The translations under genes and the position numbers were made by a program. The notes beneath the pieces are model-generated. The model did no database searches. It was not told the DNA's origin and was given only the letters and a program-made list of their open reading frames with translations. This document shows, piece by piece, positions 1,908 to 40,253 of a stretch of 64,000 bases of DNA; the stretch's first letter is position 1; the number at the start of each line of letters is the position of its first letter. The stretch is from a virus: UHGV virus genome UHGV-0382128; one strand, given 5' to 3'.

Positions 1908-2279
1908 TTAAATGAGAAAGTGGGCAACTCTTTTAATCTGTCTATAACTATCATCGATACCTCTTATTATTTCCAGACGTTCTTCTGAAGAAAGGCATTG
2001 GTTAATGTCTTTGTCAAGATTGAACAATGTCATGAGTTTTGCAATCGAAACTGCCAGGTTGTCCGATAGCTCGTTGTTTTTACGCCATTCTTCGTTACGG
2101 AAAATACAGATAAGGTCTTTCACCTGGTTTTCAGCGAGCGGTTTGGCTAACTGTGCGTCGCGCTGTTCGAGAAGGTATGCTTCGTTGGTAAGTAATTGTT
2201 TCAGGTCTTCTGGGTAAAGGGCAGCGCGAGTAACGATCAGTAATACAACAAACGGGTCTTTGAACAATTCGTTTTTCAT
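1908..2279 (-). CDS. hypothetical protein (start adjusted; track ORF 1908..2330 begins at a GTG inside the leader hairpin)
   Basis: ATG at 2279 preceded by TAGGAGAA RBS; the upstream 17 codons overlap the conserved 5' leader hairpin. Confidence 0.55.
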   Translation of the reverse strand: MKNELFKDPFVVLLIVTRAALYPEDLKQLLTNEAYLLEQRDAQLAKPLAENQVKDLICIFRNEEWRKNNELSDNLAVSIAKLMTLFNLDKDINQCLSSEERLEIIRGIDDSYRQIKRVAHFLI

Positions 2280-2308
2280 CTTTAGTTCTCCTAAAATGGT
2301 TTCGTTAA

Positions 2309-2349
2309 GTGAGAGTAACTGAACTCTCACCTAAGTAATATATATCTGA
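2309..2349 (-). promoter_or_regulatory. conserved promoter-like motif CAGATATATATTACTTAGGTGAGAG plus 5' leader hairpin (GTGAGAGT-loop-ACTCTCAC), copy 1
   Basis: One of six copies of the same element, all on the minus strand immediately upstream of minus-strand genes; preceded by a terminator hairpin and T-run. Confidence 0.55.
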
Positions 2350-2367
2350 AATTATTTTTAATGTTGA

Positions 2368-2403
2368 CGAACAAAAAATAAAAGGTGGGGGTAAACCCCC
2401 ACC
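2368..2403 (-). terminator. rho-independent terminator-like hairpin
   Basis: GGTGGGGGTAAACCCCCACC hairpin directly after the stop of gene 2408..2986, followed on the minus strand by TTTTATTTTTTGT. Confidence 0.6.
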
Positions 2404-2407
2404 GACG

Positions 2408-2986
2408 TTATACATCGAACCGATACTGCCGGGAGTTAATGAGGAACTCAGTATTCAGCTCAATCCATTCGAGTAAATCCCCCAACGGTAATCGGTTTGG
2501 GTTTTCTAACTCGATAGATGCAACCGGATAAGAGTTTACTAATTCCGTAATCGCCTCAATGCCCTCTTGCGTTCCATCGTCTTCTAAGGTGATTGTAAAC
2601 GGCATATCGGTACGTTCCGCATTAGGATTGTACAAACTGACTTTCGTTGCTTGCACAAACGCAGTCAGGTCGTCTCGCATAATGCGAATATCTGGCGCTA
2701 GAACTACCCAGAGATGTTGCCCTGGCTGGAGTTTACGTTTTGCGTAGTTTACGAAAGGACTTGCCGTCAAGTTATCTAAACCACAACAGATGTTACGTAA
2801 ACGAATTCCGCGCGGATCTTTGTAATCCACGTCGAAAATCCCCACAGGTTCATTCGCTGCCCGCTTTATCAGAAAGGCTAATACCGTGTCCGCTCTTTCT
2901 GGTAAGGAAAGCTCTATTCCCTCAAGCTCCCCATCGACGAGATTTTCTAACCAAACGTCTTTTCGCATTTCTATTAATCGGTACAC
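2408..2986 (-). CDS. hypothetical protein
   Basis: ORF 192 aa, tightly packed with neighbours. Confidence 0.5.
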   Translation of the reverse strand: MYRLIEMRKDVWLENLVDGELEGIELSLPERADTVLAFLIKRAANEPVGIFDVDYKDPRGIRLRNICCGLDNLTASPFVNYAKRKLQPGQHLWVVLAPDIRIMRDDLTAFVQATKVSLYNPNAERTDMPFTITLEDDGTQEGIEAITELVNSYPVASIELENPNRLPLGDLLEWIELNTEFLINSRQYRFDV

Positions 2987-2998
2987 GGTTCCACCTCA

Positions 2999-3772
2999 CT
3001 AATAATTAAGTTTTACATCGGCAATAAACAGCAACTGTTTACCGTGTTGCTGCACTTCTTTCCAACCTAGTTTCATAGCAGCGTCAACAACATCTATCAT
3101 GCTGTAACGAGACATCAACGCGGTTGATTTTGTTCCTGACATTAAGTAAAGCGGCTCGTTGGGGCAACGGTCGCGTGCATCAGGAAGTTCCCGAGAGACT
3201 GCTGAGCCTTCGGGTACGGTAACAACATGAATCACGGTAAATGGTCTTTTGTGGGTTAAATAAATACGAAACCCAACGTGTTCAGACTCATGAAAGACTT
3301 TCTTTACAACCACATCTTTTAGTGTCGTCTGAACATCAATCCCAGGTAATATCGTGGATTCGCGAGAAACAAAACAACGACTATTTTCAACCATGGAGAA
3401 ATAATTACGTATCGGTAAACTGGCGTTATGATCGCGCAGTTTTTTGCTCAGTAGATCGAAGTTCAGTTCTTTAACTTTCTCTAGCCATTCTTTGGCTTGT
3501 TGTATGTAATAACTACCAACGGTGCGATAAGTCAATACCTTACCTGTGCTTACTTTCCAAAGTTTAACGCTTAGTGAATTCGGCTTATAGCGACGATACT
3601 CACCCCGCGTATAGTTGATGCGCTCGTAACGCTCTACATCGTCAACGGGCGCAGATTCGATCGATTGTAATTGCAACGTACGATCTAATCTATCGGCGAA
3701 TAGTAGTGATGTTAGCGGACCTTCGATCAAATACGGTTCGGTTTTAAAGATATCATCTAGATGGATTTTCAT
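2999..3772 (-). CDS. hypothetical protein, member of a 4-gene paralog family with conserved C-terminal motif (GW..V.K.G.QLLF.AD)
   Basis: C-terminus AMKLGWKEVQQHGKQLLFIADVKLNY aligns with the C-termini of ORFs 3840..4991, 5023..5577 and 5604..6338. Confidence 0.6.
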   Translation of the reverse strand: MKIHLDDIFKTEPYLIEGPLTSLLFADRLDRTLQLQSIESAPVDDVERYERINYTRGEYRRYKPNSLSVKLWKVSTGKVLTYRTVGSYYIQQAKEWLEKVKELNFDLLSKKLRDHNASLPIRNYFSMVENSRCFVSRESTILPGIDVQTTLKDVVVKKVFHESEHVGFRIYLTHKRPFTVIHVVTVPEGSAVSRELPDARDRCPNEPLYLMSGTKSTALMSRYSMIDVVDAAMKLGWKEVQQHGKQLLFIADVKLNY

Positions 3773-3839
3773 TTCTATTTCCTTCTTAACAAAAGCCGCG
3801 ACTAAAGCGCGGCAGTTAGAGAAAGTCTATTTTTACTTA

Positions 3840-4991
3840 TTAGAGGTCAGCAACAAACAACAGCTGGCAGCCGTACTTTTGTACGTCCGCCCAACCGTAG
3901 TCTTTTCCGATTATAGGTAGATGTAAAAAATCCAGCTTCTCGTCTTTCGCTTTTAGTTTCGCCATTAACGTATTGGACTCCTCAGCACTGAGCAGTAATG
4001 CGGGCTCTTTTTCAGTACGTCCTTCTGCGGTTGGGAAGAAATTGTAATAGCTGCGAGTAGGTAAATCGACAGAAAAACTACGATTGCCTATTCTGGCGAT
4101 GAACGCAACTCCTTCACAGTTAGCATCTACACTACACGACCATCCCGCCTCCGTTAAAAGGTCTTTTAACAGACACCACACTTTAAGTTGGTTCTTAGAA
4201 ACTGTACGGTAAATAGCAAGATGTTCAGGAAGTAAATGTACGCCCATAACCACGTTTTCAGATTTCTCGTCAAGCAACTCTGGATGCTGTATCGGGAACA
4301 ATAATTCAGTGATACCCACGTTATCAATTTTGTTAACAAAATCAGTTAATTCATCTTTTAAGGTACACACGGATTTTTCTCCTTTGTCTTCAATAATCAG
4401 GTGGGGTTCGCCGCTAATTAAAATGTGGTAAACGAGATCGTCAGTAGAACGGTAAGTGAGCTTGATTGCTTTATCACTTAATATTTCGTAGCGGAAGAAA
4501 CTTTCGTACCAACTTGAGCCGAAATCGTTTTGTGTGAGTTCCTGCTCAACTTTGATGGTTTTTGCTTCAAAGCCGATTAACTCGCTTAATAACGCGAGTT
4601 CTTGTTTAGTTAAAATAGCTACACCGTGAAAGGGCACTTGTTCAAGCTGAAAACATAACTTAGTGACTTCACCATTTGGGAAGACCTTAAACATAATCTT
4701 CCGGTTGCTACTCTTTTCCCTAACAACGAGTTTACGGTAATTTAGTCCACAATTTGTGTAAGCCGCGAACTGGTAACCTTCAATTTCTTCATCGGAAGTA
4801 CAGACATCGACAGGCGCGATAATCTCATCGTATTCACTAAGTACACAGCAGCCCAATTTATAACCAAACAACGTATGTTGTAAAAAATAGTCGAGGGTTA
4901 AGCTTGGTAGTGGCCAAGCCCGATTATAGCATCTGTCCATCAGTTCTTTTAGGTACTTGGCATGTCTTGGTTTAGAAATAATATTTCGCAT
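3840..4991 (-). CDS. hypothetical protein, same C-terminal-motif paralog family
   Basis: C-terminus KDYGWADVQKYGCQLLFVADL. Confidence 0.6.
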   Translation of the reverse strand: MRNIISKPRHAKYLKELMDRCYNRAWPLPSLTLDYFLQHTLFGYKLGCCVLSEYDEIIAPVDVCTSDEEIEGYQFAAYTNCGLNYRKLVVREKSSNRKIMFKVFPNGEVTKLCFQLEQVPFHGVAILTKQELALLSELIGFEAKTIKVEQELTQNDFGSSWYESFFRYEILSDKAIKLTYRSTDDLVYHILISGEPHLIIEDKGEKSVCTLKDELTDFVNKIDNVGITELLFPIQHPELLDEKSENVVMGVHLLPEHLAIYRTVSKNQLKVWCLLKDLLTEAGWSCSVDANCEGVAFIARIGNRSFSVDLPTRSYYNFFPTAEGRTEKEPALLLSAEESNTLMAKLKAKDEKLDFLHLPIIGKDYGWADVQKYGCQLLFVADL

Positions 4992-5022
4992 TTTTACTCT
5001 CCTTTAGGGGTTTTTTCGTTAC

Positions 5023-5577
5023 TTAAGCAGGGCAAGCTAAGAACAACAACTGCTGACCGATTTTACGTACGGTATACCAACCGTGGGCTTTAGCGACCGC
5101 GATCAACGTTTCCCAGTCATCAACATCACATTGCTCGTTCCGAAGTTTTGTAAAGAGTGCTTCGGCTTCGTCTTGGTTTAATAACTTACCTGGATTATCA
5201 GGGGTGGTGCCAGAAGGGGTTGGAAAGAAATCGTATTGACGCGCTAAGAGAAAATCAACCAGATACTTGGTGTTCTCTTTATAAACCAGCGTGGAAGTCT
5301 TCCCTTCGTGGAAGAAGCTGCCTGTTTTCCAAACGCTATCTTTCAGTAAGCTCTGAAGGTAATCTGTAAAGCCCGTTCTAAATGGGATATGCGTTTTACG
5401 CGTGATGTTGCGACGCAGCGGGGTTTCCTCTACAGCTTGTACACTTACCCCTACTATCATCGCACCTGGCTGGATAATGGTATTGGTCAGTACGGTATAA
5501 GGACGGACAAAGAAATGTTCGCCTACGCCTTTTTCAAGGGTTTGGATAATTTCATTTTTCAGTTCAGTTTGAAACAT
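5023..5577 (-). CDS. hypothetical protein, same C-terminal-motif paralog family
   Basis: C-terminus KAHGWYTVRKIGQQLLFLACPA. Confidence 0.6.
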   Translation of the reverse strand: MFQTELKNEIIQTLEKGVGEHFFVRPYTVLTNTIIQPGAMIVGVSVQAVEETPLRRNITRKTHIPFRTGFTDYLQSLLKDSVWKTGSFFHEGKTSTLVYKENTKYLVDFLLARQYDFFPTPSGTTPDNPGKLLNQDEAEALFTKLRNEQCDVDDWETLIAVAKAHGWYTVRKIGQQLLFLACPA

Positions 5578-5603
5578 GGTATATTCTCCTTTTAGGTTTT
5601 TAC

Positions 5604-6338
5604 TTACGCGGTTTTAATTAGCAGCAGATAGCCCTTCGTAATCTCAGCACAACTCCACCCTTTTACGGCAGCGACACCACGAAGGTAATTTTCTGTGTGA
5701 TACTGTAAAAACGGATCGTCTGGATTAATCTCAACTAGGTGAGTGGCTTTAGAAATCGTTTCCGCCTCTGGGATTTGTTTTGTTAAGCCTGATGCAATCA
5801 GTTCAATAACGCGGTATCCCTCTAACCAAGAAACATAGATACGTAAACCGTATAACTTACCGTTATCTTTTAAGGGATAAAGACTGATGTCCCGGCCGAG
5901 CAACGTTAATTCTACATCAGTGGGAAGGTTTTCTACATGCTTGATTAACCCTACCCCATGTCTAAACAGTGGGAAGTAAGAGTATAGCGTCAGCATACTG
6001 CTTCCTCCAATAAACGTAACATCGGAAACGGTAGGCGTGCTGGCAATGAGGCGAACATGTTCCGCTACGACTTCAAGTTCGGCGTCACTGATCAATTTAT
6101 AGAATAAAATGACGCTGGTTTCGGTATTAAGAACAAAGAAGAACCGGTTGGCGTGACTGCTTATCGTGTATTCGTCAACCATGCTGTCGATAACGTCACT
6201 GTCTGGATAATCTTCGGGTTTAATTGTTTCAGCAGAGACTAACTTAGCAGGTTGGGATTGCCCTATTAGTTCATTAACCACCGTAGAAGAAAGTTCTAAA
6301 CTGGTGTTAGTAAAGATATCGTCTAATAATTCTCTCAT
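5604..6338 (-). CDS. hypothetical protein, divergent member of the C-terminal-motif family
   Basis: C-terminus AVKGWSCAEITKGYLLLIKTA. Confidence 0.5.
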   Translation of the reverse strand: MRELLDDIFTNTSLELSSTVVNELIGQSQPAKLVSAETIKPEDYPDSDVIDSMVDEYTISSHANRFFFVLNTETSVILFYKLISDAELEVVAEHVRLIASTPTVSDVTFIGGSSMLTLYSYFPLFRHGVGLIKHVENLPTDVELTLLGRDISLYPLKDNGKLYGLRIYVSWLEGYRVIELIASGLTKQIPEAETISKATHLVEINPDDPFLQYHTENYLRGVAAVKGWSCAEITKGYLLLIKTA

Positions 6339-6545
6339 GATTTACTCGCTAATCTCAATAAAGGGGAGTCTATTATTATGGATTGTAAAAGAGGTATAAG
6401 GAAGTCACTACGTTCCTCTGGGAAGAGTATGTCGGTATACTACGTATACCTCCGCTATTTATATCCGTATACATAATGCCCCCTACCCCCTACCGGTATC
6501 CCGAGTAGCAGAATAAAGGGGCAGACTGTAAAATTTTAGTACCTG

Positions 6546-6626
6546 TTATCGGAAGGTACTAAATGGAGTGTAGTCTTTAAGCCGTTTGAGCAGCTCATTG
6601 AGACTTTCTTTCTTTTTAGTAGACAT
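6546..6626 (-). CDS. possible small ORF (26 aa, MSTKKKESLNELLKRLKDYTPFSTFR)
   Basis: Hand-translated; GGGGAGA RBS 6 nt upstream of ATG; lies downstream of promoter-motif copy 2 and its leader hairpin; too short to appear in the ORF track. Confidence 0.3.
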   Translation of the reverse strand: MSTKKKESLNELLKRLKDYTPFSTFR

Positions 6627-6680
6627 GATCTGTCTCCCCAAATGGTTTAATCAATCCGTTTCGAATGAAACGTGTCCGTA

Positions 6681-6731
6681 GGGGCTGAACTGGCACTTCA
6701 GCCCCTATTCACTTAAGTAATATATATCTGA
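6681..6731 (-). promoter_or_regulatory. conserved promoter-like motif CAGATATATATTACTTAAGTGA plus leader hairpin (GGGGCTGAA-loop-TTCAGCCCC), copy 2
   Basis: Same AT-rich core as the other copies; perfect 9-bp inverted repeat immediately downstream on the minus strand. Confidence 0.5.
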
Positions 6732-6759
6732 AATCAATTCCGATCTAAGGAACGTCCCG

Positions 6760-8141: not shown

Positions 8142-8146
8142 GCGAA

Positions 8147-24562: not shown

Positions 24563-24629
24563 TTTAATTACAGGAGGAACTATGTTTATGGACGTAGTCC
24601 TCCATTCTTTTTTATTTTAAGGATACGTG

Positions 24630-25041: not shown

Positions 25042-25956
25042 ATGGAAGAACTTACTAGACCGACGGTATCCGATAAGCTCTACAGTAATCCGAGAACGTT
25101 AAACGTGATTACAACATCCAAATGTAATCTGGACTGTAGCTTCTGCGGCGGAGCCTATTACATGCATAGAGAGGATACAACCGCAGAAGTACAAAAGGAA
25201 AGTATTATCGAGGCGCTGGAAAATAACCCGACTATCACAAATATCCAATGGTCAGGGGGCGAACCATTACTTGCCACGCGTAAAATTGATACCCTTATAG
25301 AAGAGATAAGGGAGAAGTATCCTCGTTGCGAACATTACCTGTATACCAATGGTTTAAAAATGCGTAAATCGCATCTACCGTTGTTAAAGGGTTTTGATAG
25401 TATCTTTTTTAGCATGGATGGATTCAAAGAATCAGAGCGTCCGTTCATGCGGATTATCGAAGAAAAACAATACGAGGTTTTGGAGACAATTTACGAATTG
25501 AAAAATATTCGTACTTGGGCGGTTTTGACGCGCGAGCGTATTGGGGATAAACGTTGGTACGAAGATATAATTGCGTTACATAACCACATTTACCATTATG
25601 GTTTTTGTGAGATGTCGCTGGTTTTGGACAAAAACATGCCAAAACCGTTATCTCCCGATCACGTTATGAACTTTATTTACGGGTATTTTAGAATTCAGGA
25701 GAATATAGAAAGACTGAATTCGTCCAATCGAAGCGAATGTGCGTTTACGCTAAATGCGTTATTTGATGAACCCTGTAACACATGTAGTCGTTGTTTTCGC
25801 ATTGAGTCTGACGGTGCCCAGAACCAAGTAAAGAACGTTGAAATCGTAACGCAACACGGCTGTAGTGACTTGGCCAGAAAGGTTGGATTAGATGCTTACG
25901 ACTATATACGTCGTGTGGTAGGGGCTAAGAATAGAGTCTCAGAAAAACTACGATAA
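25042..25956 (+). CDS. radical SAM enzyme (Cx3Cx2C; extra C-terminal Cys cluster), paralog 1
   Basis: TSKCNLDCSFCGG motif; GGEPLL glycine-rich motif; C-terminal Cys cluster (C..C.TC.RC...C) suggesting an auxiliary Fe-S domain. Confidence 0.75.
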   Translation: MEELTRPTVSDKLYSNPRTLNVITTSKCNLDCSFCGGAYYMHREDTTAEVQKESIIEALENNPTITNIQWSGGEPLLATRKIDTLIEEIREKYPRCEHYLYTNGLKMRKSHLPLLKGFDSIFFSMDGFKESERPFMRIIEEKQYEVLETIYELKNIRTWAVLTRERIGDKRWYEDIIALHNHIYHYGFCEMSLVLDKNMPKPLSPDHVMNFIYGYFRIQENIERLNSSNRSECAFTLNALFDEPCNTCSRCFRIESDGAQNQVKNVEIVTQHGCSDLARKVGLDAYDYIRRVVGAKNRVSEKLR

Positions 25957-26014: not shown

Positions 26015-26413
26015 ATGGCGATTGGTTTATCTTCTTTAAAGGCCCGGCTAGATAACATAGACTCTACTGCATTAAAAAATACAGGTGCGGTGCAGAACTA
26101 TATTCGTGGTAAAGCCACTAATAATAGCGATCTGTTTGGAGGACAGCCGAGAAATCACTATGACTGCGGAGGTAGCTGTAGCTGGACGTGCTCAAGTTGT
26201 TCGGGCGGCTGTACCGGCAACGCCTCCGGCGGCTGCGGTTCTTCCTGTTCAGCGAACTGTGTTTCAGGATGTAGTACAGGTTGCACAGGTTGTAGCAGTA
26301 CCTGCTCAGGAGGGTGCACAGGTAATTGCTCGGGCGGTTGTTCAAGTAGTTGCACCGGAACATGTTCAGGTTCATGTCGAGGCGGATGTCAGCAATCGTG
26401 TACTGGAAGATAA
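26015..26413 (+). CDS. Cys/Ser/Gly-rich precursor-like protein 2
   Basis: Leader MAIGLSSLKARLDNID..., junction HYDCGGSCSWTCSS, core rich in C-x3-C; 28-nt block identical to precursor 1 (24780-24807 = 26168-26195). Confidence 0.6.
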   Translation: MAIGLSSLKARLDNIDSTALKNTGAVQNYIRGKATNNSDLFGGQPRNHYDCGGSCSWTCSSCSGGCTGNASGGCGSSCSANCVSGCSTGCTGCSSTCSGGCTGNCSGGCSSSCTGTCSGSCRGGCQQSCTGR

Positions 26414-27989: not shown

Positions 27990-28928
27990 ATGGACTCACC
28001 TGCAATGACAACCGACGTAGAGCCAAGGTTATCGAATCGTTTATACAATAAACCCACCGTATTGTCCGTAGTTGCTACATCCAAATGTAATCTGGACTGT
28101 AGCTTCTGCGGCGGAGCCTATTACATGCATCGTGAAGATTCTCCGCGAGAGTTTCAACGTGAACGAATTTTGAAAGCGTTGGCGTCTAACCCAACCATTA
28201 CTGAAATTCAGTGGACTGGCGGTGAACCGCTACTGGCAACTCGAAAGATTGAGGCGTTTGTCGACGAATTAAAAACGATCCGTCCTGAACTCAAACACCA
28301 GATGTTCACGAACGGTTTAAAAATGCGTAAATCGCATCTACCGTTGTTAAAACAATTCGATGGTATATATGTTAGCATCGATGGGTTTAATCTTTCTGAA
28401 CGGCCTTTTAAGCGCTTTATTGATGATAATTGTCATGAAGCGTTAGAAGTAATTTACAGCTTGAATAATGTTAACACCTGGGCTGTTGTTACGAGGGAGA
28501 ATTTATCCAATAAAAGATGGCATGAAGATATCATTCAATTACATACTGCTATCTATCATTACGGTTTTCGTTCCATGTCCTTATTACTAGATAAAAACAT
28601 GCCAAAACCGTTATCTCCCGATCACGTTATGAACTTTATTTACGGGTATTTTAGAATTCAGGAGAATATAGAAAGATTAAACGTTCTAAATTCTAGAGAC
28701 TGCGGTTTTATTGTAAACAGATTCTTCGATCATGCTTGTAATGTCTGTAGCGAAAGTCTCAGGATAGACGCGGACGGGGAAGAAAACCAACTTAAAAATG
28801 TACCAATAACTACAAAAGCAGGGTGTAACCAACTAGCCTCCTCAATAGGTGTAGAAGCTTACGAGTACATTCGTCGTGTAGTGATGGCAGAGCGTAATAG
28901 AGGGGCGGAAAATGAGTCAAGAAAATAG
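27990..28928 (+). CDS. radical SAM enzyme, paralog 2
   Basis: TSKCNLDCSFCGG; three blocks of 100 percent nucleotide identity with rSAM paralog 1 (54, 38 and 84 nt). Confidence 0.75.
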   Translation: MDSPAMTTDVEPRLSNRLYNKPTVLSVVATSKCNLDCSFCGGAYYMHREDSPREFQRERILKALASNPTITEIQWTGGEPLLATRKIEAFVDELKTIRPELKHQMFTNGLKMRKSHLPLLKQFDGIYVSIDGFNLSERPFKRFIDDNCHEALEVIYSLNNVNTWAVVTRENLSNKRWHEDIIQLHTAIYHYGFRSMSLLLDKNMPKPLSPDHVMNFIYGYFRIQENIERLNVLNSRDCGFIVNRFFDHACNVCSESLRIDADGEENQLKNVPITTKAGCNQLASSIGVEAYEYIRRVVMAERNRGAENESRK

Positions 28929-30234
28929 TTATCCTAAACAACTGACTTATCAAATTGTTACAAATTTATCGTGTAACTTGGACTGTGAGTATTGTTACGA
29001 ACGTAAGTATCCCCGTAATAACAAAGCGGCGGATATTGTTGATTTTCTACACGCTTGTTTTGAACGAGATAAAGATCTGACAAACATCGAGGTCGTTATC
29101 GATATCATCGGTGGTGAGCCGTTTATGCAGCCTAAACTATTAAAGGCGGCATTTGAAACCGCAGAAGAGTTATGCGAAAAACATAATCGGCCGTTTATGT
29201 TTAGCATCTCTACTAACGGAACGTTGTTAGATAGACCTTTGAATAGAGAAATTATTGAACGTTGGAAAGACAGGCTTTCTATCGGCGTGTCTATTGATGG
29301 ATTGCCCGAATCGCACGATAAGTACCGGATTTTTACAACAACTCGTGAAGGATCTTACGAGGCCGCTGTGCGGGGCTATAACTACTTAAAAGAAGTCGGT
29401 ATTGCAGAACTTGGTGTAAAAGCGACCTTTACGTTGGAAACGTTACCGTTCTATGCTGCTGGAATGAAATCATTAATTGATATTACTGGCGGCGGAACTA
29501 TTTCTGGCAACGTAACCTTCGAAGACATTATGCCACGGAGCATGGCTACTTCAATCGCATTGCAGATGATGGACGTGGTAGATTATTGGGTTGAGAAGGG
29601 CTTACACACCAACCCACGTAACACTTTGTCGCACATCATTCCAGACGGGTTAGATTTTGATACTATCTGGGAACCAAACTGGCGTGATCAGTTATTGTAT
29701 AACGATACTGTACGTTTGAATCCAGAACGTTTACGCCCGTTCTGCGGTACGTTAACACACATGACATGCTTAGGATTTGATCGTAAGATCTTCGGTTGTA
29801 ACCGTTTCATGTCAACCGTAACATCACGTTCTGCCGTATTTGAATTAGTTGGGCGGGAATTTGTTAGCTTAGATGACGGGAAATTGCTGGAAGAGATTCA
29901 GACGCAATACACCAACTATCCTGAAACCTGTTTAGGTTGTCCAATGAAGCACGCTTGTGGTAGTTGTGCGGCTGCATCTTACGAGAATGGAGAAGGGACG
30001 CTAGAAGATCGCAAAGCTTATCACGCTGAACGCCGTCAATGTGGCTGGACAACTGCAAAGTTGATGGTTGCGGAATATTGGAAACAGAAAATGGGCACGA
30101 CGTCAGTGAAAGATTTTCATGACAATAGCATGTGTTATTGCCCTCGTTGCGTACGTGAACGTACCCAGAAAGAAAAACAATTGAGAGAAACCAAAGATGA
30201 AGCCAATTCTGATCCACAATATTACGAAGCGTAA
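28912..30234 (+). CDS. radical SAM enzyme with SPASM-like C-terminal Cys-rich domain (anSME-like architecture)
   Basis: N-terminal SCNLDCEYC (Cx3Cx2C); C-terminal CLGCPMKHACGSCAAASYENGEG and further Cys; start overlaps the stop of rSAM 2 by 17 nt. Confidence 0.75.
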   Translation: MSQENSYPKQLTYQIVTNLSCNLDCEYCYERKYPRNNKAADIVDFLHACFERDKDLTNIEVVIDIIGGEPFMQPKLLKAAFETAEELCEKHNRPFMFSISTNGTLLDRPLNREIIERWKDRLSIGVSIDGLPESHDKYRIFTTTREGSYEAAVRGYNYLKEVGIAELGVKATFTLETLPFYAAGMKSLIDITGGGTISGNVTFEDIMPRSMATSIALQMMDVVDYWVEKGLHTNPRNTLSHIIPDGLDFDTIWEPNWRDQLLYNDTVRLNPERLRPFCGTLTHMTCLGFDRKIFGCNRFMSTVTSRSAVFELVGREFVSLDDGKLLEEIQTQYTNYPETCLGCPMKHACGSCAAASYENGEGTLEDRKAYHAERRQCGWTTAKLMVAEYWKQKMGTTSVKDFHDNSMCYCPRCVRERTQKEKQLRETKDEANSDPQYYEA

Positions 30235-33286: not shown

Positions 33287-33359
33287 AACCGCCAAATCGT
33301 GCGTAAAACGCATTCTGAGCGTCTTTATACAAAATAAGGTATAAACACCTTAGAAATAG

Positions 33360-34527: not shown

Positions 34528-34533
34528 CTTCCC

Positions 34534-35225: not shown

Positions 35226-35246
35226 TTTGTTTAACTCCTCTTTTAC

Positions 35247-35282
35247 ACAAAAAAAGAAAAGAGGGTGGGATTACCCCACCCT
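35247..35282 (-). terminator. rho-independent terminator
   Basis: GGGTGGGATTACCCCACCC hairpin followed on the minus strand by a T-rich run. Confidence 0.65.
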
Positions 35283-35296
35283 GTAGTTATTTCTTC

Positions 35297-35761
35297 TTAG
35301 CGAGATGGCTTGGCTGGCGCTGCGGCGACAGACGGTTTACGCGCAACACGCACTGTAAAACCACCGACCCAGGTTAGACACTCGGGGCGGAAGAAAATAC
35401 CGTGCTCGATTGCACTGCCGTCTAGCGGTAACGCACCAACCTGCTCTACCCATACATCGTCTTCTGTAAGGGTTAAGCCATACTGCTCGTTAATTACAGG
35501 CAGCAAGTCCGCAGTCGTGGTTGCTGCCTCAACTAACAGTTTCGGCAATACGTTGTGGAAATACAAACCTGCATCAATGCGGTTATACTGGAACGTTTGC
35601 TTATTAACATAACCGAGATTCTTAACCGGCACAACCGTAATTTCGGTGTTGTACGTACCGGTACTTACGACGGGCTCACCCAATGTGACTTTGGCGGTGT
35701 CGAGCTCGGCGTCTGGGTTAGCCTTTTTAATAAGGTCGAAGATAGTTTCTTGACTGGTCAT
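35297..35761 (-). CDS. small beta-rich protein, paralog family member
   Basis: 154 aa; pattern IFDLIKKANP...VTLGEPV...TEITVVP..F.YNRI. Confidence 0.5.
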   Translation of the reverse strand: MTSQETIFDLIKKANPDAELDTAKVTLGEPVVSTGTYNTEITVVPVKNLGYVNKQTFQYNRIDAGLYFHNVLPKLLVEAATTTADLLPVINEQYGLTLTEDDVWVEQVGALPLDGSAIEHGIFFRPECLTWVGGFTVRVARKPSVAAAPAKPSR

Positions 35762-35774
35762 TACTGTAATCCTC

Positions 35775-36623
35775 TTAATCTAAGAATCCAGGTAAGACCG
35801 AATTAGTCTTGGCTAATTCAATCTTCGACTTCGGACGATCGGTTCCGTTAAAGTGAATTAACAGTTTACCGGTCAGGTTAGAACACATACCGCTTAGGGC
35901 GAGTACCAGCACACGCGTGTACTTCGCATTTGCGCCTTCGAAACCTGCGGTAGGGCCATCGTAGATAACCTTAGCACCGAACAAGTTATTAGCAGCGTTC
36001 TTAGGTACGCTTACCCATTTCTCATCAACAACGTTAGTCAGTTTAGTAGCTAACTCTACTAAGTCTACGGTGCCGTTGATGGTAATTGGATCAAGGTAAT
36101 CTTTTTCTGCGGTGAAGTCAATTGGGTAAGAATAAACCGCAGCGTTACCTTTCTTAGTGGACGGATACTCTACCAGGTTTTCTAATTGAGTAACAGGCAG
36201 CAATTTAGCCAGATCAATAGGATCGCGTAGCGTAAGCGTCACTTCGCCACACCACTCGTAAGATTTCTCGTTAGCGGTAAGTTGGTGGGTTTTACCTTCA
36301 ACTTTCGCATCAACGATATCCGATGGCAGAATATTTAAATCGTATTTTGCGTTGATTGCGTTAAGCAAATCTGAGGCGGTTACAACACCGTCGTTACCGA
36401 ATACCAACTCACCTGTTAGGTATTCGGGCAAATTACGACGATGGTAAGTCACCGTTAAAGTAGTAGACTCATCGCCTTTGAGTTTAGAAGTCAGAACCAC
36501 CTGGGTATCAACCCCAGTACCAGTAGGTTCGCCGATATCAACATCACTGAAGGTCAATGGCGGAACAATATTGTTTTCAGTGTTGATGAGTTTTAGCAGT
36601 TTCTGTTTTGACGTAAGAGACAT
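35775..36623 (-). CDS. paralog family member with C-terminal extension (282 aa)
   Basis: N-terminal LLKLINTENN...FSDVDIGEP...LTVTYHRR pattern. Confidence 0.5.
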   Translation of the reverse strand: MSLTSKQKLLKLINTENNIVPPLTFSDVDIGEPTGTGVDTQVVLTSKLKGDESTTLTVTYHRRNLPEYLTGELVFGNDGVVTASDLLNAINAKYDLNILPSDIVDAKVEGKTHQLTANEKSYEWCGEVTLTLRDPIDLAKLLPVTQLENLVEYPSTKKGNAAVYSYPIDFTAEKDYLDPITINGTVDLVELATKLTNVVDEKWVSVPKNAANNLFGAKVIYDGPTAGFEGANAKYTRVLVLALSGMCSNLTGKLLIHFNGTDRPKSKIELAKTNSVLPGFLD

Positions 36624-36724
36624 CGCGTTAACTCACAATAAGTAAAAAGGTTTAAGAGGTCGTTTTACATCCCTCAGCCAGCATAGGAATAGTCGAGTAG
36701 AAGGTAAGTAAAGTAGCGTCAAAA

Positions 36725-36782
36725 TAACAAAAAAGAAAAGGGAAAGAAAATTAATTCCGCTATAGACCGAAGTCTATAGCGG
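36725..36782 (-). terminator. rho-independent terminator (UUCG-loop hairpin)
   Basis: CCGCTATAGAC-TTCG-GTCTATAGCGG perfect 11-bp stem followed on the minus strand by a T-rich tract. Confidence 0.7.
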
Positions 36783-36789
36783 AGAGAGC

Positions 36790-37221
36790 TTAACGAACGT
36801 TGTGTGCTAAGTACATGAGCTGTCGTGTGTCTACTGCTCGAGCAGTTGGTGACAGTTGTTGCAGTATCGTACGTGTAGCATGATCGTTGTTAATACGAGT
36901 AATCCATTCATCAACCATATCTGGCACGCTGTCAGTGGTTAGTGGGTAATTAAGACTTTCTAAAACATACTCGGTAAATTCAAAAGCTAAATTTTGGTCA
37001 CGATGCATAGTGTCGCCTAGGTCACCGACCGGATATTCGTCTCGTGGTCTCTTACCTTGACAAACTATGAAACCGCAATGAGCTTCCACAACGGCTTTAA
37101 ACTGTGCTAGTTCGATTTTATCAAACTCAGCTATTGGTGTACAGAAAGTAACTAAAACGGCCAGAGCAACTGGATTATTGCGAACATAATCACGAAATTC
37201 ATCATTTAATACGAAAAACAT
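36790..37221 (-). CDS. hypothetical protein, paralog of 38468..38896
   Basis: Shared L..DLRDYIR..P...VL ... YP.GD.G..M motif. Confidence 0.55.
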   Translation of the reverse strand: MFFVLNDEFRDYVRNNPVALAVLVTFCTPIAEFDKIELAQFKAVVEAHCGFIVCQGKRPRDEYPVGDLGDTMHRDQNLAFEFTEYVLESLNYPLTTDSVPDMVDEWITRINNDHATRTILQQLSPTARAVDTRQLMYLAHNVR

Positions 37222-37239
37222 TTTAATACTCCTTTAGGT

Positions 37240-37272
37240 AAATACAATAATAGAGGGGTGGTAAACCACCCC
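37240..37272 (-). terminator. terminator-like hairpin (weak T-run)
   Basis: AGGGGTGGTTTACCACCCCT hairpin after the stop of 37291..38445. Confidence 0.4.
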
Positions 37273-37290
37273 TTGTACGAATTTAGTTAA

Positions 37291-38445
37291 TTAACGATGT
37301 TTCTGACAAGCAGGGCAAACGCAGACTACGCCAGAAGATATTTCTCTAAAGAGCGCGTCGATCGTGTGCTCATTATCCTTAAGAAAACGAACTGACCGCA
37401 AGTCACTCAGATGAGTTTTTAACTTTCCAATAATACCGGGTTCATAGTTGAGCATAATGGTAAGTGTATTGTTTGTGTAAGTCCACTGACGGACTTTCTC
37501 AGGAAACCAACGAGTGATATCACGCATAAACGTATCGGCATCTTCTTTTCCAATAGCAATGATTGTCAGAAGACGTAGCCGATCGTTAACAATATCGTCA
37601 ATGAGATCACGAATTTCATCTCCCAGAGAAAGGTCGTCTAACGGGAGTTTAATGGTGAGCTGTTCGCCCTCGAGTTTAGTTTCTACCCTGCTGGAGTAGA
37701 ATGCTGCCAAGGTATCATTAATATCTTTGGCTTCTGGGCCAGTATAATTAATGGCATCCTGTCTTTCGCCGCATTTACGGGAATTTTTCTTTATTAACTC
37801 ATCCATACGGGTGCGTAGCTGATTAATAACAACAGGGTCTTTATCAACAAGTACAGTTAGAGTGTCGCGAACATAATTAGACTGGTGAATTTTCTCCTTG
37901 TGTTCGTGAACAGCCCCACGCATGAATTCGTCCGCTTCACTTTTTCCGATACCTTGAAACGAAATAAGTAGAACGGCGCCGTTATCGATCAGCTCAGCGA
38001 TAGAACGTACTTCTTCCATGAAGTTACGATCGTCTTTCTTCAATCGAACGACGAGTTTGCTGTTATCCCAGTAAATACCTAAATCGCCGGGATAGAAGGT
38101 CTCTAACACCTTTTTAATTTGTTCAATATTTTCGCCTTCGTACCAGAGGACGTGAGGTTCGTCTTTCTGCTGTTCTTTGACTTTCGGTTGCTCTGTCTCG
38201 GCCGCTTTTGCCTTGGCGTTTGCGGCTACCGGGTTGAGCAACTCACCGATTTCCACCGCAATAGTGTCAGAAACGTACTCACTGCTGTCAGTCCAGTAGA
38301 ATACGATGCTTTCATCGTTGACCTGCTCTACACGGAAATGTACACCTTTATCCAGGAATATGCGATAAAGTTGATCAAGTAACTGTGCTTCAGGAACCGG
38401 ACGGATTTCAGTTTTAACGAGCGGAGTAATTTCGATATTAAACAT
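37291..38445 (-). CDS. hypothetical protein with internal duplicated domain (384 aa)
   Basis: Two similar segments (about aa 150-215 and 290-350); domain recurs in 42416..43258. Confidence 0.55.
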   Translation of the reverse strand: MFNIEITPLVKTEIRPVPEAQLLDQLYRIFLDKGVHFRVEQVNDESIVFYWTDSSEYVSDTIAVEIGELLNPVAANAKAKAAETEQPKVKEQQKDEPHVLWYEGENIEQIKKVLETFYPGDLGIYWDNSKLVVRLKKDDRNFMEEVRSIAELIDNGAVLLISFQGIGKSEADEFMRGAVHEHKEKIHQSNYVRDTLTVLVDKDPVVINQLRTRMDELIKKNSRKCGERQDAINYTGPEAKDINDTLAAFYSSRVETKLEGEQLTIKLPLDDLSLGDEIRDLIDDIVNDRLRLLTIIAIGKEDADTFMRDITRWFPEKVRQWTYTNNTLTIMLNYEPGIIGKLKTHLSDLRSVRFLKDNEHTIDALFREISSGVVCVCPACQKHR

Positions 38446-38467
38446 GTCATTTTTTCCTTTTGGTAAA

Positions 38468-38896
38468 TTAGCTGTAATTGTGCTTAAAGAACTCTAAAGC
38501 ACGCTGGTCGTTTGTAATCGCCGTTGTGGACATTCGTTTTAACGCCTGTCGGCAGTAAGCGTCGCTCAGAATACGTTGCTGCCAAGCGTTGACTATTTCC
38601 GTCACTGTTTCCCCTTCTACAGCAGTGTTAAGTTTATCGAGGCAGTGTCGCCCTAACAGAAATGCAACCGCATAATCTGTAAACATCTCGGTGCCGAAAT
38701 CCCCGTCGGGATAATCGCAACGTTTACGTACTGACGTTGCGGTAATGGAGTTATAAGCGGTTTTTATTATCTCGTGGAACTGTTCCACCGTTAAGATGTT
38801 AACGTCAGTACCTGAAAGCGTAAGCGAAGCCAGTACAGGAATACTGGCTGGGTACTGACGGATGTAATCACGCAAATCTGAATTGAGCGTTTTCAT
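38468..38896 (-). CDS. hypothetical protein, paralog of 36790..37221
   Basis: See 36790..37221. Confidence 0.55.
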   Translation of the reverse strand: MKTLNSDLRDYIRQYPASIPVLASLTLSGTDVNILTVEQFHEIIKTAYNSITATSVRKRCDYPDGDFGTEMFTDYAVAFLLGRHCLDKLNTAVEGETVTEIVNAWQQRILSDAYCRQALKRMSTTAITNDQRALEFFKHNYS

Positions 38897-39644
38897 TCAT
38901 GAACCCTTTTGTTTTTATCCAATATAAGCAATTTGCACCAACCTGAACTGGCTCGATCCTATCAAGTTCTTCCATCAGAGCCAGATAAGTTTGCCAAACG
39001 GTTTGACGTTCGAAGAAAAATGATGTTGTGCCATTAGACCTAAGACATGCACGTACTAAGTGCTCGGTTTGTGAAAACTGAATATTAACGTTGTTCAGGA
39101 CACGTTGAATAGTATCAGAATCGTAATGCGCGAAACGATCTTTGTGTACCAGAACCATCTCTATAGGCGTGGAATCGTCATTGACTGAAAAAGGTTCGTC
39201 AATGCGAATAAGGTTATTCCGGTGAGGTACTCCATCGTAACCGAGCGTATAGACATCCATACCTTCCCCCGGGTTACAGTCGAAATACTCCAGAATTTTA
39301 TCAGCGTTTTTCTCCGCCGAACGTTTAAAGTAAACAATATAAACGGTATGACTAATCTTCTCAACTTCGTATACTTTTTCGGAGAACGATCTGAAAATTG
39401 CCATGACGTTTAATCTTCCTTTGTCTTTAGCAACGTAACATGCAACTAAACACGTTGCTTCACCACGAAGAACATCGTCAATGAACTCTTTTGCTCGTTT
39501 TAATTCATCCTCGTTAAAACCACCGATAGTGAGCTCATTCCCATAAATCTGATAAGCAAGATGTGGAGTAACGTTTTTCAGGAAACTCGTAATGATGTGC
39601 GTGTATGCCCAAAGACTACTATTCTTAAACTCGATAGTTTTCAT
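38868..39644 (-). CDS. hypothetical protein (258 aa)
   Basis: ORF with overlapping stop/start arrangement. Confidence 0.5.
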   Translation of the reverse strand: MKTIEFKNSSLWAYTHIITSFLKNVTPHLAYQIYGNELTIGGFNEDELKRAKEFIDDVLRGEATCLVACYVAKDKGRLNVMAIFRSFSEKVYEVEKISHTVYIVYFKRSAEKNADKILEYFDCNPGEGMDVYTLGYDGVPHRNNLIRIDEPFSVNDDSTPIEMVLVHKDRFAHYDSDTIQRVLNNVNIQFSQTEHLVRACLRSNGTTSFFFERQTVWQTYLALMEELDRIEPVQVGANCLYWIKTKGFMNENAQFRFA

Positions 39645-39688
39645 TTTATTTTCCTTTTGGTTTTACAAGCTGAAGCGTTAATTTACGC

Positions 39689-40183
39689 TTAGAGGTGTTT
39701 TCCGATAACTTCCGAAACTAATTCGTAAAGGTCATCGTCACTGCACACGTCTACGCTAATTCCGATATCGATACTACGACTGCGGAACCCTACTTTGAGC
39801 GTTTTACCGAATTCGGTTTGTAGGGCTTTATAGAGTCTATTCTTATCTTCTTTAAAGAGAGGAACAGGTAGTCTAACAGTGAACTTGTAATGTTCTTTCG
39901 AAACAAGTTCGTTAGAATAATTAAAACGTTTAGCCACACGAGTTCCGATAATCTGTGTTATCAGCTTAAACATTTCTTCGTCGCTATACGGTGTTGCACC
40001 ATAACCGATATCAATAGAATTTCTACGGAATCCTGCGCAGAATAATGCACCGAATTGCTCACGGAATTCTTTGTGTAGAATATCTTTTTCTACGTCCCAC
40101 AGCCCGTAACCCAAGTCAATCGTGAATTTGTATTTTTCTTTGTCGACTAATTCGTTAGTGTAATCAAGTCTAGTGAAGTTCAT
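39689..40183 (-). CDS. hypothetical protein built from two tandem repeats of about 80 aa (start adjusted from 40234)
   Basis: Repeats NELVDKEKYKFTIDLGYGLW...SIDIGYGATPYSDEEMFKLITQIIG and NELVSKEHYKFTVRLPVPLF...SIDIGISVDVCSDDDLYELVSEVIG; ATG at 40183 preceded by TAGGAGAA. Confidence 0.55.
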   Translation of the reverse strand: MNFTRLDYTNELVDKEKYKFTIDLGYGLWDVEKDILHKEFREQFGALFCAGFRRNSIDIGYGATPYSDEEMFKLITQIIGTRVAKRFNYSNELVSKEHYKFTVRLPVPLFKEDKNRLYKALQTEFGKTLKVGFRSRSIDIGISVDVCSDDDLYELVSEVIGKHL

Positions 40184-40212
40184 GGTATATTCTCCTAAAA
40201 TGGTTTCGTTAA

Positions 40213-40253
40213 GTGAGAGTAACTGAACTCTCACCTAGGTAATATATATCTGA
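40213..40253 (-). promoter_or_regulatory. conserved promoter-like motif plus leader hairpin, copy 3 (leader nearly identical to copy 1)
   Basis: CAGATATATATTACCTAGGTGAGAGTTCAGTTACTCTCACTTAACGAAACCATTTTAGGAGAA. Confidence 0.55.

What the first reader, a model, noticed from the sequence alone, without database searches (positions are those of the whole stretch)
2279..40253. Two unrelated genes share an almost identical promoter plus 5' UTR (about 70 nt)
The segments upstream of 1908..2279 and 39689..40183 are nearly identical from the promoter motif through the hairpin GTGAGAGTTCAGTTACTCTCAC and spacer TTAACGAAACCATTTTAGGAGAA to the start codon, although the downstream proteins differ. This suggests a portable regulatory cassette (promoter, structured leader, RBS), perhaps with a shared post-transcriptional control. 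It also causes the ORF track to over-extend both genes from a GTG inside the hairpin.
Basis: seen in the sequence. Interest (0 to 1): 0.45.

Follow-up and report, generated by a model that had tools for sequence, protein, structure and literature searches.

The report
Duplicated jumbo-phage early promoter–leader cassette
Two unrelated small genes of a giant (phiKZ/SPN3US-like) phage carry the same 75-base early promoter plus hairpin leader, because this repeated control module was copied from one gene to the other by recombination; it is a real but fairly ordinary feature of how such phages organise and shuffle their early genes.

Summary
On the minus strand, 2286-2360 and 40190-40264 form a 75-nt repeat, 73/75 identical. 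It ends 6 nt before the start codons of two unrelated genes (123 aa and 164 aa).

The promoter part is one of five window copies of TYTCAGATATATATTAC-YTARG. This matches the early promoters read by the virion RNA polymerase of phiKZ-like jumbo phages. It is the only DNA the two 4-kb flanking segments tested share with SPN3US-like Salmonella and Erwinia phages.

In about 45 promoters of this clade, the start region GGTGAG is followed by a hairpin whose stem covaries, then a stereotyped spacer and AAGGAG. So the hairpin is a class feature of early leaders, not special to these two genes.

Related uncultivated genomes show that the full leader belongs natively to the 164-aa gene. The 123-aa gene with this leader sits behind a pre-existing promoter and is absent at that site in three relatives. 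In the two genomes that have both copies, the hairpin loop matches within each genome but differs between them, which indicates gene conversion.

Best reading: a repeated early promoter-leader module that doubles as a recombination substrate, analogous to T4 PeSLs. The hairpin is probably a 5'-terminal mRNA stabiliser; this is inferred, and there are no transcript data.

The parts
2286..2360 (-). Repeat copy A: early promoter + leader up to and including the Shine-Dalgarno region (75 nt)
   Evidence: D4; 73/75 identical to copy B
40190..40264 (-). Repeat copy B: the same 75-nt promoter + leader. This is the native context (164-aa gene), conserved in orthologous position in 5 IMG/VR and 7 metagenome contigs.
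2335..2351 (-). Early-promoter core TTTCAGATATATATTAC (copy A)
   Evidence: 5 copies vs 0.17 expected; matches the phiKZ TATATTAC / 201phi2-1 / N1M2 / AR9 early consensus
40239..40255 (-). Early-promoter core TTTCAGATATATATTAC (copy B)
6717..6733 (-). Third copy of the early promoter. It has a different leader (11-bp GC hairpin) and drives a 26-aa small ORF (6546-6626).
44622..44638 (-). Fourth copy of the early promoter (TCTCAG...), with its own hairpin leader, upstream of the 283-aa gene 43710-44561
63698..63714 (-). Fifth copy of the early promoter, with hairpin AGAGTTAcaatTAACTCT, upstream of an HTH protein gene (63279-63638)
2328..2328 (-). Predicted transcription start (G, 7th nt after TAC), copy A. 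Inferred by homology only.
   Evidence: AR9 AAATATATATTAT-(6N)-G+1, and phiKZ/phiR1-37 TSS 6 nt downstream of the box; G at the 7th nt in 7/7 phiKZ promoters sampled and in every clade promoter printed
40232..40232 (-). Predicted transcription start, copy B (inferred)
   Evidence: as for copy A
2309..2330 (-). Leader hairpin GTGAGAGT-tcagtt-ACTCTCAC, copy A. Complementarity extends to 2305-2334 (12 bp with one G.U).
40213..40234 (-). Leader hairpin, copy B (identical)
2286..2308 (-). Spacer TTAACGAAACCATTTT + Shine-Dalgarno AGGAG (2288-2292), copy A. Not strongly paired in either mRNA.
40190..40212 (-). Spacer + Shine-Dalgarno (40192-40196), copy B
1908..2279 (-). 123-aa early gene (phrog_27024 family; SPN3US gp249-like), true start ATG 2279
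39689..40183 (-). 164-aa early gene (two about 80-aa internal repeats; no Pfam/PHROG/phage-database homologue), true start ATG 40183
1875..2321 (-). Segment (leader from the hairpin loop onward + 123-aa gene + 3' spacer) that is absent at this site in three related genomes. In those genomes the same promoter drives the next gene (1400-1861) directly.
   Evidence: L127, L072, L140
2384..2403 (-). Intrinsic terminator of the upstream operon, immediately before promoter copy A

Best explanation
The window comes from a jumbo phage distantly related to Salmonella phage SPN3US and the Erwinia 'Machina/Huxley'-type phages, which are phiKZ-like phages with their own RNA polymerases. The repeated 75 nt is one module of that phage's early-gene control system.

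The module has four parts:
1. An early promoter, TTTCAGATATATATTAC. It is of the type read by the virion-packaged multisubunit RNA polymerase. Transcription is predicted to start at the conserved G seven bases after TAC.
2. A conserved initial transcribed sequence, GGTGAGAG.
3. A hairpin that pairs this 5' end.
4. An A/U-rich spacer plus a strong Shine-Dalgarno sequence that stays unpaired.

All five promoters in the window, and about 45 in related genomes, have this architecture. The hairpin stems differ in sequence but covary.

The two copies flagged are near-identical along their whole length because of recombination. The leader is native to the 164-aa gene. In the lineage of this phage, a paralogue of a small early gene family (123 aa) was placed behind a pre-existing promoter together with this leader. 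The junctions lie in the conserved promoter/5' leader and at the Shine-Dalgarno region. Later gene conversion between the two copies, 38 kb apart, has kept them identical.

What is shown: the repeat, the promoter family, the generic covarying hairpin, the insertion polymorphism, and the within-genome matching of the loops.

What is inferred: use of the promoter by the virion polymerase, the start site, and the function of the hairpin. I take the hairpin to be a 5'-terminal stem-loop that protects early mRNAs from 5'-end-dependent decay (RppH/RNase E) while leaving the ribosome-binding site free.
For: Promoter identity:
- The motif occurs 5 times, all on the minus strand at operon starts, vs 0.17 expected (D3).
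- It matches the published consensus: phiKZ TATATTAC, 201phi2-1 ...TTTRARR.BTATATTACDWHDGTG, N1M2/OBP TTTCARRYAKATATTATYWAAGTG, and AR9 AAATATATATTAT-(6N)-G+1.
- No convincing sigma-70 match.
- The only megablast hits of two 4-kb window segments to 50,697 phage genomes are this promoter/leader, in SPN3US-like and Erwinia jumbo phages. The 123-aa protein is only 27-36% identical to its homologues there.

Generic hairpin:
- In 46 promoters, RNAfold gives mean z=-2.2 against shuffles that keep the 5' 7 nt fixed, and 80% have z<-1.
- The complement of a leader's own arm is present in 24/43 cases, versus 22/301 for the arms of other leaders (odds ratio 16, p=3e-13).
- Stem variants GAGAGT/GAGATT/GAGCGT/GAGCAT/GAGGAT each have a matching 3' arm, and G.U pairs are frequent.
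- The SPN3US gp249 leader has a compensated stem.
- Leader architecture is stereotyped, with a median of 59 nt from TAC to the start codon.

Recombination origin:
- L127, L072 and L140 lack window 1875-2321 and use the same promoter for the next gene.
- 'Native' paralogues of the 123-aa gene (L157-L160, SPN3US) carry a different leader.
- The 164-type leader is found only before 164-aa orthologues and the inserted paralogue.
- In the window both loops are TTCAGTTA. In contig 3300029126_000001 both are TACAAAAG, although that contig is 92% identical and collinear to window 3-5279, which contains copy A.

Folding: the hairpin is independent of the downstream sequence, and the SD is not stably sequestered in either mRNA.
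Against: - There are no transcript data for this phage or, as far as the searched literature shows, for any SPN3US-like phage. The start site and early timing rest on homology.
- No RNA-polymerase subunit gene was identified among the 27 window ORFs scanned (not every ORF was checked).
- phiKZ early leaders (7 sampled) show no consistent hairpin. So the hairpin is not intrinsic to virion-polymerase transcription, and its role may be clade- or host-specific.
- In 22 of 49 leaders, including this cassette, complementarity extends 4-6 nt upstream of the predicted +1. That is unexpected if those bases are not transcribed.
- Concerted evolution rests on only two genomes that carry both copies.
- The covariation counts include orthologous leaders from related genomes and are not phylogenetically independent.
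Confidence: 0.7

Rival explanations
1. The two genes form a small regulon. A phage or host RNA-binding protein or sRNA recognises the specific hairpin loop and/or spacer. The within-genome matching of the loops reflects co-evolution with that factor rather than gene conversion.
For: Only these two leaders share the loop and spacer. Loop alleles match within each of the two genomes that have both copies. The leader is strongly conserved before the 164-aa gene in 12 genomes.
Against: Two loop alleles that differ at 6 of 9 apical positions both persist before the same orthologous gene, so loop sequence is not tightly constrained. The copy before the 123-aa gene in contig 3300029126_000001 carries a stem mismatch and an indel, as expected for drift after conversion. 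No complementary sequence occurs elsewhere in the window. The hairpin is a generic feature of all early leaders.
Confidence: 0.12
2. The hairpin acts at the level of transcription rather than mRNA stability. Three sub-options: it is a promoter-proximal element needed by the phage polymerase for promoter escape; it is an attenuator or pause site (hairpin + U tract); or it acts as a DNA inverted repeat at the start site.
For: The 5' arm is the conserved initial transcribed sequence GGTGAGAG. Many leaders have UUUA/UUUUA right after the stem. Complementarity often reaches upstream of the predicted +1. Premature termination in 5' UTRs is reported for phiKZ.
Against: In this cassette the stem is followed by CACUUAACG, which is not a U tract, and the terminator scan of the region reports only the upstream terminator at 2384-2403. 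Frequent G.U pairs make the structure strand-specific, so it would not form a symmetric DNA cruciform. phiKZ promoters of the same type lack the hairpin, so the polymerase family does not require it.
Confidence: 0.15
3. The repeat is only a neutral scar of a recent segmental duplication. The leader has no function beyond carrying a promoter and an RBS.
For: The identity is that of a recent copy (73/75). The event is rare: only 2 of about 13 related genomes have a second copy.
Against: The hairpin stem is kept by compensatory changes across many unrelated early leaders. The leader is conserved before the 164-aa gene while flanking DNA diverges to 75-86% identity. The copy boundaries coincide with functional elements (promoter, SD).
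Confidence: 0.1
4. The motif is an ordinary host sigma-70 promoter.
For: It is AT-rich with a TATATT hexamer. A weak 9/12 sigma-70-like match exists at 40268-40241.
Against: There is no sigma-70 match at copy A, and the match at copy B is within chance expectation. More than 20 invariant positions are conserved across phage genera that otherwise share no DNA, which is unlike sigma-70 promoters. The motif matches the phiKZ-type early consensus, including G at the 7th nt.
Confidence: 0.03

Closest known systems
Early (virion RNA polymerase) promoters of phiKZ-like jumbo phages (phiKZ, 201phi2-1, OBP/N1M2, AR9, phiR1-37)
   Same: AT-rich core TATATTAC. An upstream TTTCAR element. A conserved G at the 7th nt after the box, which is the mapped +1 in AR9, phiKZ and phiR1-37. 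Tens of near-identical copies in front of small early operons, often just after a terminator.
   Different: In this enterobacterial clade the conservation continues into the transcript (YTAGGTGAGAG) and is followed by a covarying hairpin. Seven phiKZ promoters examined here show no consistent hairpin. No start-site mapping exists for this clade in the literature searched.
PeSLs (promoter-early stem-loops) of T4-type phages (Arbiol et al. 2010, PMC2839356; Comeau et al. 2014, PMC4122927)
   Same: A small composite regulatory cassette is repeated in front of small, non-essential early genes. Recombination between copies produces insertions, deletions and replacements of genes between close relatives. 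That is the pattern seen here.
   Different: A PeSL is a terminator stem-loop followed by a sigma-70-like promoter in T4-like phages. Here the promoter is of the phage-polymerase type in a phiKZ-like phage, and the conserved stem-loop lies downstream in the 5' UTR. No mini-circle evidence is available.
5'-terminal stabilising stem-loops of bacterial and phage mRNAs (e.g. the ompA 5' UTR; recalled from my own knowledge of Emory, Bouvet & Belasco 1992, not re-read here)
   Same: A stable hairpin at or within a few nt of the 5' end, with the ribosome-binding site left single-stranded.
   Different: The function is untested here. The element is a repeated class feature tied to one promoter type.
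phiKZ promoters upstream of PHIKZ006 and PHIKZ010.1
   Same: Two early promoters (record positions 2665 and 4516) share a near-identical promoter plus about 37-nt leader in front of different genes. So shared promoter-leader modules recur in this phage group.
   Different: An AT-rich leader without a comparable hairpin. A different phage genus and host.

Membership tests
phiKZ-type virion-RNAP early promoter | Highly conserved AT-rich box (TATATTAC/TATATTAT) with an upstream T-rich/TTTCAR element | tested here: met
   TTTCAGATATATATTAC x5, compared with the published consensus
phiKZ-type virion-RNAP early promoter | Conserved G start site 6N downstream of the box | tested here: inconclusive
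   G is present at the 7th nt in every clade promoter printed, and in 7/7 phiKZ promoters. The actual 5' end is not mapped, and hairpin complementarity often extends upstream of it.
phiKZ-type virion-RNAP early promoter | Many copies per genome, at the heads of operons of small early genes | tested here: met
   5 copies in 64 kb, all heading minus-strand operons of small unknown-function or HTH genes. Up to six exact-core copies were recovered per related genome (6 for SPN3US).
phiKZ-type virion-RNAP early promoter | The phage encodes and packages a multisubunit RNA polymerase; transcription is early and rifampicin-insensitive | not testable with these tools
   No RNAP subunit was found among the 27 window ORFs scanned. 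The relative SPN3US is documented as phiKZ-like, with virion RNAP subunits.
T4-type PeSL cassette | Stem-loop terminator immediately followed by a sigma-70-like early promoter | tested here: not met
   A terminator precedes copy A but none was detected before copy B. The promoter is not sigma-70-like.
T4-type PeSL cassette | Copies flank small variable genes and mark indel/replacement junctions between close relatives | tested here: met
   Window 1875-2321 is present or absent among relatives, with junctions in the promoter/5' leader and at the SD.
5'-terminal mRNA-stabilising stem-loop | Stable hairpin with no more than a few unpaired nt at the 5' end | tested here: inconclusive
   For this cassette the complementarity covers positions 1-12 (copy A) or 2-12 (copy B) after TAC. 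So a start at positions 2-7 (1-7 in copy A) gives a paired 5' end. The TSS is not mapped.
5'-terminal mRNA-stabilising stem-loop | The hairpin increases mRNA half-life in an RNase E/RppH-dependent way | not testable with these tools
   Needs half-life measurements.
Intrinsic terminator / attenuator | GC-rich stem followed by a U tract | tested here: not met
   The stem is followed by CACTTAACG. The terminator scan reports only the upstream terminator.
Any Rfam family | Score at or above the family's gathering threshold | tested here: not met
   0 hits in the whole window at gathering thresholds. Relaxed hits of 15-21 bits are far below gathering scores of 50-120.
N4-type virion-RNAP hairpin promoter | DNA hairpin upstream of the start site, serving as the recognition element of a single-subunit polymerase | tested here: not met
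   The hairpin lies downstream of the conserved box and overlaps or follows the start site. Loops are 3-15 nt and G.U pairs are common. The definition of the feature is from my own knowledge and the abstract listed.

The most novel reading that the evidence does not exclude
The conserved start sequence plus 5' hairpin is a clade-wide 'self' tag on virion-polymerase transcripts of SPN3US-like phages. A trans-acting factor reads it, for example for selective protection while host mRNA is destroyed, for release from the early infection vesicle, or for preferential translation. On this reading, the within-genome matching of the two loops reflects recognition by such a factor rather than neutral gene conversion.
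Probability: 0.12. Interest if true: 0.7.

Novelty: new variant of a known kind. Interest (0 to 1): 0.42.

Why it matters
The finding has four practical consequences.

1. It gives a concrete, testable definition of the early promoter and 5' leader for the enterobacterial branch of phiKZ-like jumbo phages. I found no transcription-start mapping for this branch in the searchable literature.

2. It shows that the promoter plus the first transcribed bases is the most conserved DNA in these genomes. That makes it useful for annotation, and it corrects two over-extended ORFs here.

3. It shows that dispersed promoter-leader repeats act as recombination and gene-conversion substrates that move small early genes. 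This parallels PeSL-mediated shuffling in T4-like phages, but with a different promoter system.

4. The generic, covarying 5' hairpin is a candidate cis-acting stabiliser. It could be exploited in expression cassettes or in engineering of jumbo phages.

None of this overturns current understanding.

Tried and rejected
- **Rfam.** Nothing at gathering thresholds. Only sub-threshold chance hits appear around the leader.
- **Sigma-70 promoter.** Rejected.
- **Coding extension from the GTG in the hairpin.** Rejected. Orthologous leaders differ by 1-2-nt indels, and the predicted start site lies inside that GTG.
- **First IMG/VR scan with the promoter core alone** (AGATATATATTACNTA). It was replaced by a longer pattern.
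- **tblastn of the 164-aa protein against phage genomes.** No match. Pfam and PHROG gave nothing for it either.
- **Is the hairpin a general phiKZ-group feature?** Not in phiKZ itself; 7 promoters show mixed z-scores.
- **Search for more genomes carrying both leader copies**. None beyond the window and contig 3300029126_000001, so the concerted-evolution argument stays at n=2.
- **Antisense or other partner of the spacer in the window.** None.
- **Degradosome inhibitor Dip in SPN3US-like phages.** Homologues of phiKZ Dip (PHIKZ037) are detectable only in Pseudomonas phages. This is weakly consistent with a different, cis-encoded protection strategy, but it is not evidence for one.
- **Terminator/attenuator reading for this cassette.** No U tract follows the stem.
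Full report
**1. The observation**

Both flagged segments lie on the minus strand. The pairwise alignment and an independent repeat search (family D4, spacing 37,904 nt) recover the repeat.

The near-perfect block is 75 nt, 2286-2360 vs 40190-40264: TAAAAATA[A/T]TTTCAGATATATATTAC[T/C]TAGGTGAGAGTTCAGTTACTCTCACTTAACGAAACCATTTTAGGAGAA. Both mismatches lie in or beside the promoter.

Identity ends 6 nt before each ATG (ctaaagATG vs tataccATG). The hairpin and the spacer each occur exactly twice in the window, with none expected in shuffles.

The downstream proteins are 123 aa (1908-2279) and 164 aa (39689-40183). They are unrelated.

The ORF lister does start both genes at the GTG inside the hairpin. 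Indels in orthologous leaders show that this extension is not coding.

**2. The promoter**

The motif TYTCAGATATATATTAC occurs five times, always on the minus strand, at 2335-2351, 6717-6733, 40239-40255, 44622-44638 and 63698-63714. Shuffles predict 0.17 copies (D3).

It matches the early-promoter consensus published for phiKZ-like jumbo phages:
- phiKZ TATATTAC
- 201phi2-1 ...TTTRARR.BTATATTACDWHDGTG
- N1M2/OBP TTTCARRYAKATATTATYWAAGTG (PMC7058600)
- AR9 AAATATATATTAT-(6N)-G+1; that paper also states that phiKZ and phiR1-37 start 6 nt downstream of the box (PMC5312081)

These promoters are attributed to the virion-packaged multisubunit RNA polymerase (PMC7598289; PMC13282480). I sampled the first 50 kb of phiKZ. 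All seven TATATTAC promoters have G at the 7th nt after TAC, as do all promoters of the present clade. By homology the start sites would be 2328 and 40232. This is an inference.

A sigma-70 reading is not supported.

**3. The phage**

Two 4-kb window segments have no megablast match in 50,697 phage genomes except 36-62-nt hits that are exactly this promoter/leader. Those hits are in about 240-kb Salmonella (SPN3US-like), Erwinia (Huxley, Machina, Asesino...), Escherichia, Proteus and Cronobacter jumbo phages.

The 123-aa protein has only 27-36% identical homologues there, such as SPN3US gp249. Large plus-strand ORFs are jumbo-phage virion proteins.

Closer relatives are uncultivated 220-246-kb IMG/VR contigs, 75-98% identical in patches. 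The window is a mosaic of them:
- 3-5279 is closest to contig 3300029126_000001 (92%).
- 35.6-49.6 kb is closest to 3300045988_113438 (81-98% in blocks, about 96% around the 164-aa gene).

**4. The hairpin is a class feature**

I extracted every distinct promoter instance from the window and the fetched loci. After TAC comes YTAGGTGAG, then a hairpin with a variable loop, then a spacer rich in TTAAC / (A)TCGAC(C/T)AT, then AAGGAG and the start codon. The median distance from TAC to the start codon is 59 nt.

Evidence that the hairpin is real:
- Folding energies of the first 38 nt are well below shuffles that keep the conserved 5' bases: mean z=-2.2, with 80% below -1.
- Stem variants (GAGAGT, GAGATT, GAGCGT, GAGCAT, GAGGAT) each carry the matching 3' arm. 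The complement of a leader's own arm is found in 24/43 cases, versus 22/301 for arms of other leaders. These counts are not phylogenetically independent.
- SPN3US gp249, the homologue of the 123-aa gene, has terminator, promoter, and a compensated hairpin GAGCGTT...AACGCT.
- G.U pairs are common, so the structure is specific to the transcribed sense, that is, RNA.

For the cassette itself the hairpin is strong (-13.9 kcal/mol, z=-5.8). It is independent of what follows, and the Shine-Dalgarno sequence is not stably sequestered in either mRNA.

In phiKZ the same promoter type is not followed by a consistent hairpin. So the hairpin is specific to this enterobacterial clade and is not a requirement of the polymerase family.

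**5. Why these two leaders are identical**

- **Native owner.** The full leader (stem GTGAGAG/CTCTCAC, spacer TTAAC.AAACCATTTTAGGAG) precedes orthologues of the 164-aa gene in five IMG/VR genomes and seven metagenome contigs. It occurs nowhere else except before the 123-aa gene in the window and in contig 3300029126_000001.
- **Other members of the 123-aa family.** L157-L160 and SPN3US gp249 carry a different leader: gagcgttgtagaattacacgct + cgacttgttaacctaaaggagtatta.
- **Presence/absence.** In three relatives (L127, L072, L140) the same terminator and promoter as at 2351 drive the next gene (window 1400-1861) directly, through their own hairpin leader. Window 1875-2321 is absent. The junctions fall after ttaggtgagagtt and at the SD of the next gene.
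- **Matching loops.** In the two genomes that have both copies, the hairpin apex matches within the genome and differs between genomes. The window has TTCAGTTA twice. 3300029126_000001 has TACAAAAG twice, even though that contig is 92% identical and collinear to window 3-5279, which contains copy A. Both alleles are common before the 164-aa gene.

This indicates that the 164-aa leader converted the other copy at least once. Leaders are mosaic more generally. The 26-nt spacer of the window's 63698 leader equals the spacer of the 'native' 123-aa-family leader in relatives. In phiKZ, two promoters share one leader before different genes.

**6. Mechanism and rivals**

Best-supported picture: a repeated early promoter-leader module whose conserved ends (promoter/start region and SD) serve as homology for recombination. 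This gives gene insertion and replacement, and concerted evolution of copies.

For the hairpin I favour a 5'-terminal stabiliser. In this cassette complementarity spans positions 1-12 after TAC in copy A and 2-12 in copy B. So the 5' end is paired for a start at positions 2-7, or 1-7 in copy A.

Recognisable homologues of the phiKZ degradosome inhibitor Dip are confined to Pseudomonas phages. That is compatible with a cis-encoded alternative but does not prove it.

Rivals:
It is weakened by the coexistence of two very different loop alleles, and by a decayed stem in one copy.
- A transcription-level role (promoter escape or attenuation). It cannot be excluded.
- A neutral duplication scar. It is contradicted by stem covariation.
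- A host sigma-70 promoter. It is rejected.

**7. Unexplained**

In 22 of 49 leaders the inverted repeat extends 4-6 nt upstream of the start site predicted by homology, but it never reaches the TATATTAC box. In 11 leaders it begins exactly at that G.

Either the start site in this clade lies further upstream in some promoters, or the extension matters in read-through transcripts or in DNA. Only 5'-end mapping can decide.

**8. Comparison and novelty**

- The promoter is a member of a known kind (phiKZ-type early promoters).
- The shuffling behaviour works like T4 PeSLs (PMC2839356, PMC4122927). It fails the PeSL definition, which requires a sigma-70 promoter preceded by a terminator stem-loop in T4-like phages.
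- The generic covarying 5' hairpin of early leaders in SPN3US-like phages was not mentioned in the papers I could search. That library lacks most subscription journals.

I therefore rate it a new variant of a known kind, of moderate interest.

Noticed in passing
window 44687-46807 (-): The 706-aa protein has a SASA esterase domain + DUF6645 (phrog_143). It is about 52% identical to the NanS-p 9-O-acetyl-sialic-acid esterases of Stx-converting E. coli prophages. That is an unexpected cargo for a jumbo phage, and it hints at an enteric host.
   Followed up: partly
window 24774-24807, 26162-26195, 26336-26369; ORFs 24627-25022 and 26015-26413; radical-SAM gene 28912-30234: A 34-nt repeat that translates as a Cys-rich motif (DCGGSCSWTCS) occurs in two paralogous about 131-aa ORFs. 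They lie a few kb from a radical-SAM protein (phrog_1802) inside the virion-gene block. The relation between them is unknown.
   Followed up: no
window 6338-6733 (-): The early promoter at 6717-6733 is followed by an 11-bp GC-rich hairpin, a second hairpin and a 26-aa small ORF (6546-6626, MSTKKKESLNELLKRLKDYTPFSTFR). About 200 nt without an ORF of 60 aa or more then precede the 244-aa gene at 6338. This could be a small protein and/or a non-coding RNA.
   Followed up: partly
window 49758-50720 (within tail-fibre gene 48771-53210): 120-nt periodic direct repeats (66-71% identity) inside the 1479-aa tail-fibre-like gene.
   Followed up: no
window 25331-25630 vs 28294-28593: A 300-nt direct repeat at 67% identity links ORFs 25042-25956 and 27990-28928, which are probably paralogues.
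   Followed up: no
window 39689-40183 (-): The 164-aa protein is an internal tandem duplication of an about 80-aa unit (Y.NELV.KE.YKFT ... GFR.RSIDIG ... IG). It has no homologue in Pfam, PHROGs or the phage genome collection.
   Followed up: partly
L161 (phiKZ NC_004629) 2665 and 4516: Two phiKZ early promoters share a near-identical promoter plus about 37-nt leader in front of different genes (PHIKZ006 and PHIKZ010.1). This is the same phenomenon in the type phage.
   Followed up: partly
window 63641-63714 (-) vs L157-L160 about 2920-2997: The leader of the HTH-protein gene (63279-63638) shares its 26-nt spacer CGACTTGTTAACCTAAAGGAGTATTA with the leader of the 123-aa-family genes in related genomes, but with a different hairpin. 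Early leaders are mosaics of modules.
   Followed up: partly
window 3-5279 vs 35618-49611: The window is a mosaic relative to uncultivated relatives. The left end is closest to IMG/VR contig 3300029126_000001 (92%). The 35.6-49.6-kb region is closest to 3300045988_113438 (81-98% in blocks, about 96% around the 164-aa gene). This indicates inter-phage recombination.
   Followed up: partly
L157-L160, about 3355 onward: In relatives the 'native' 123-aa-family gene is immediately followed by a paralogue (MKWSKELI..C.DPF..W). SPN3US gp249 and gp250 are adjacent genes of similar length (399 and 390 bp). This appears to be a small tandem early-gene family of unknown function.
   Followed up: no
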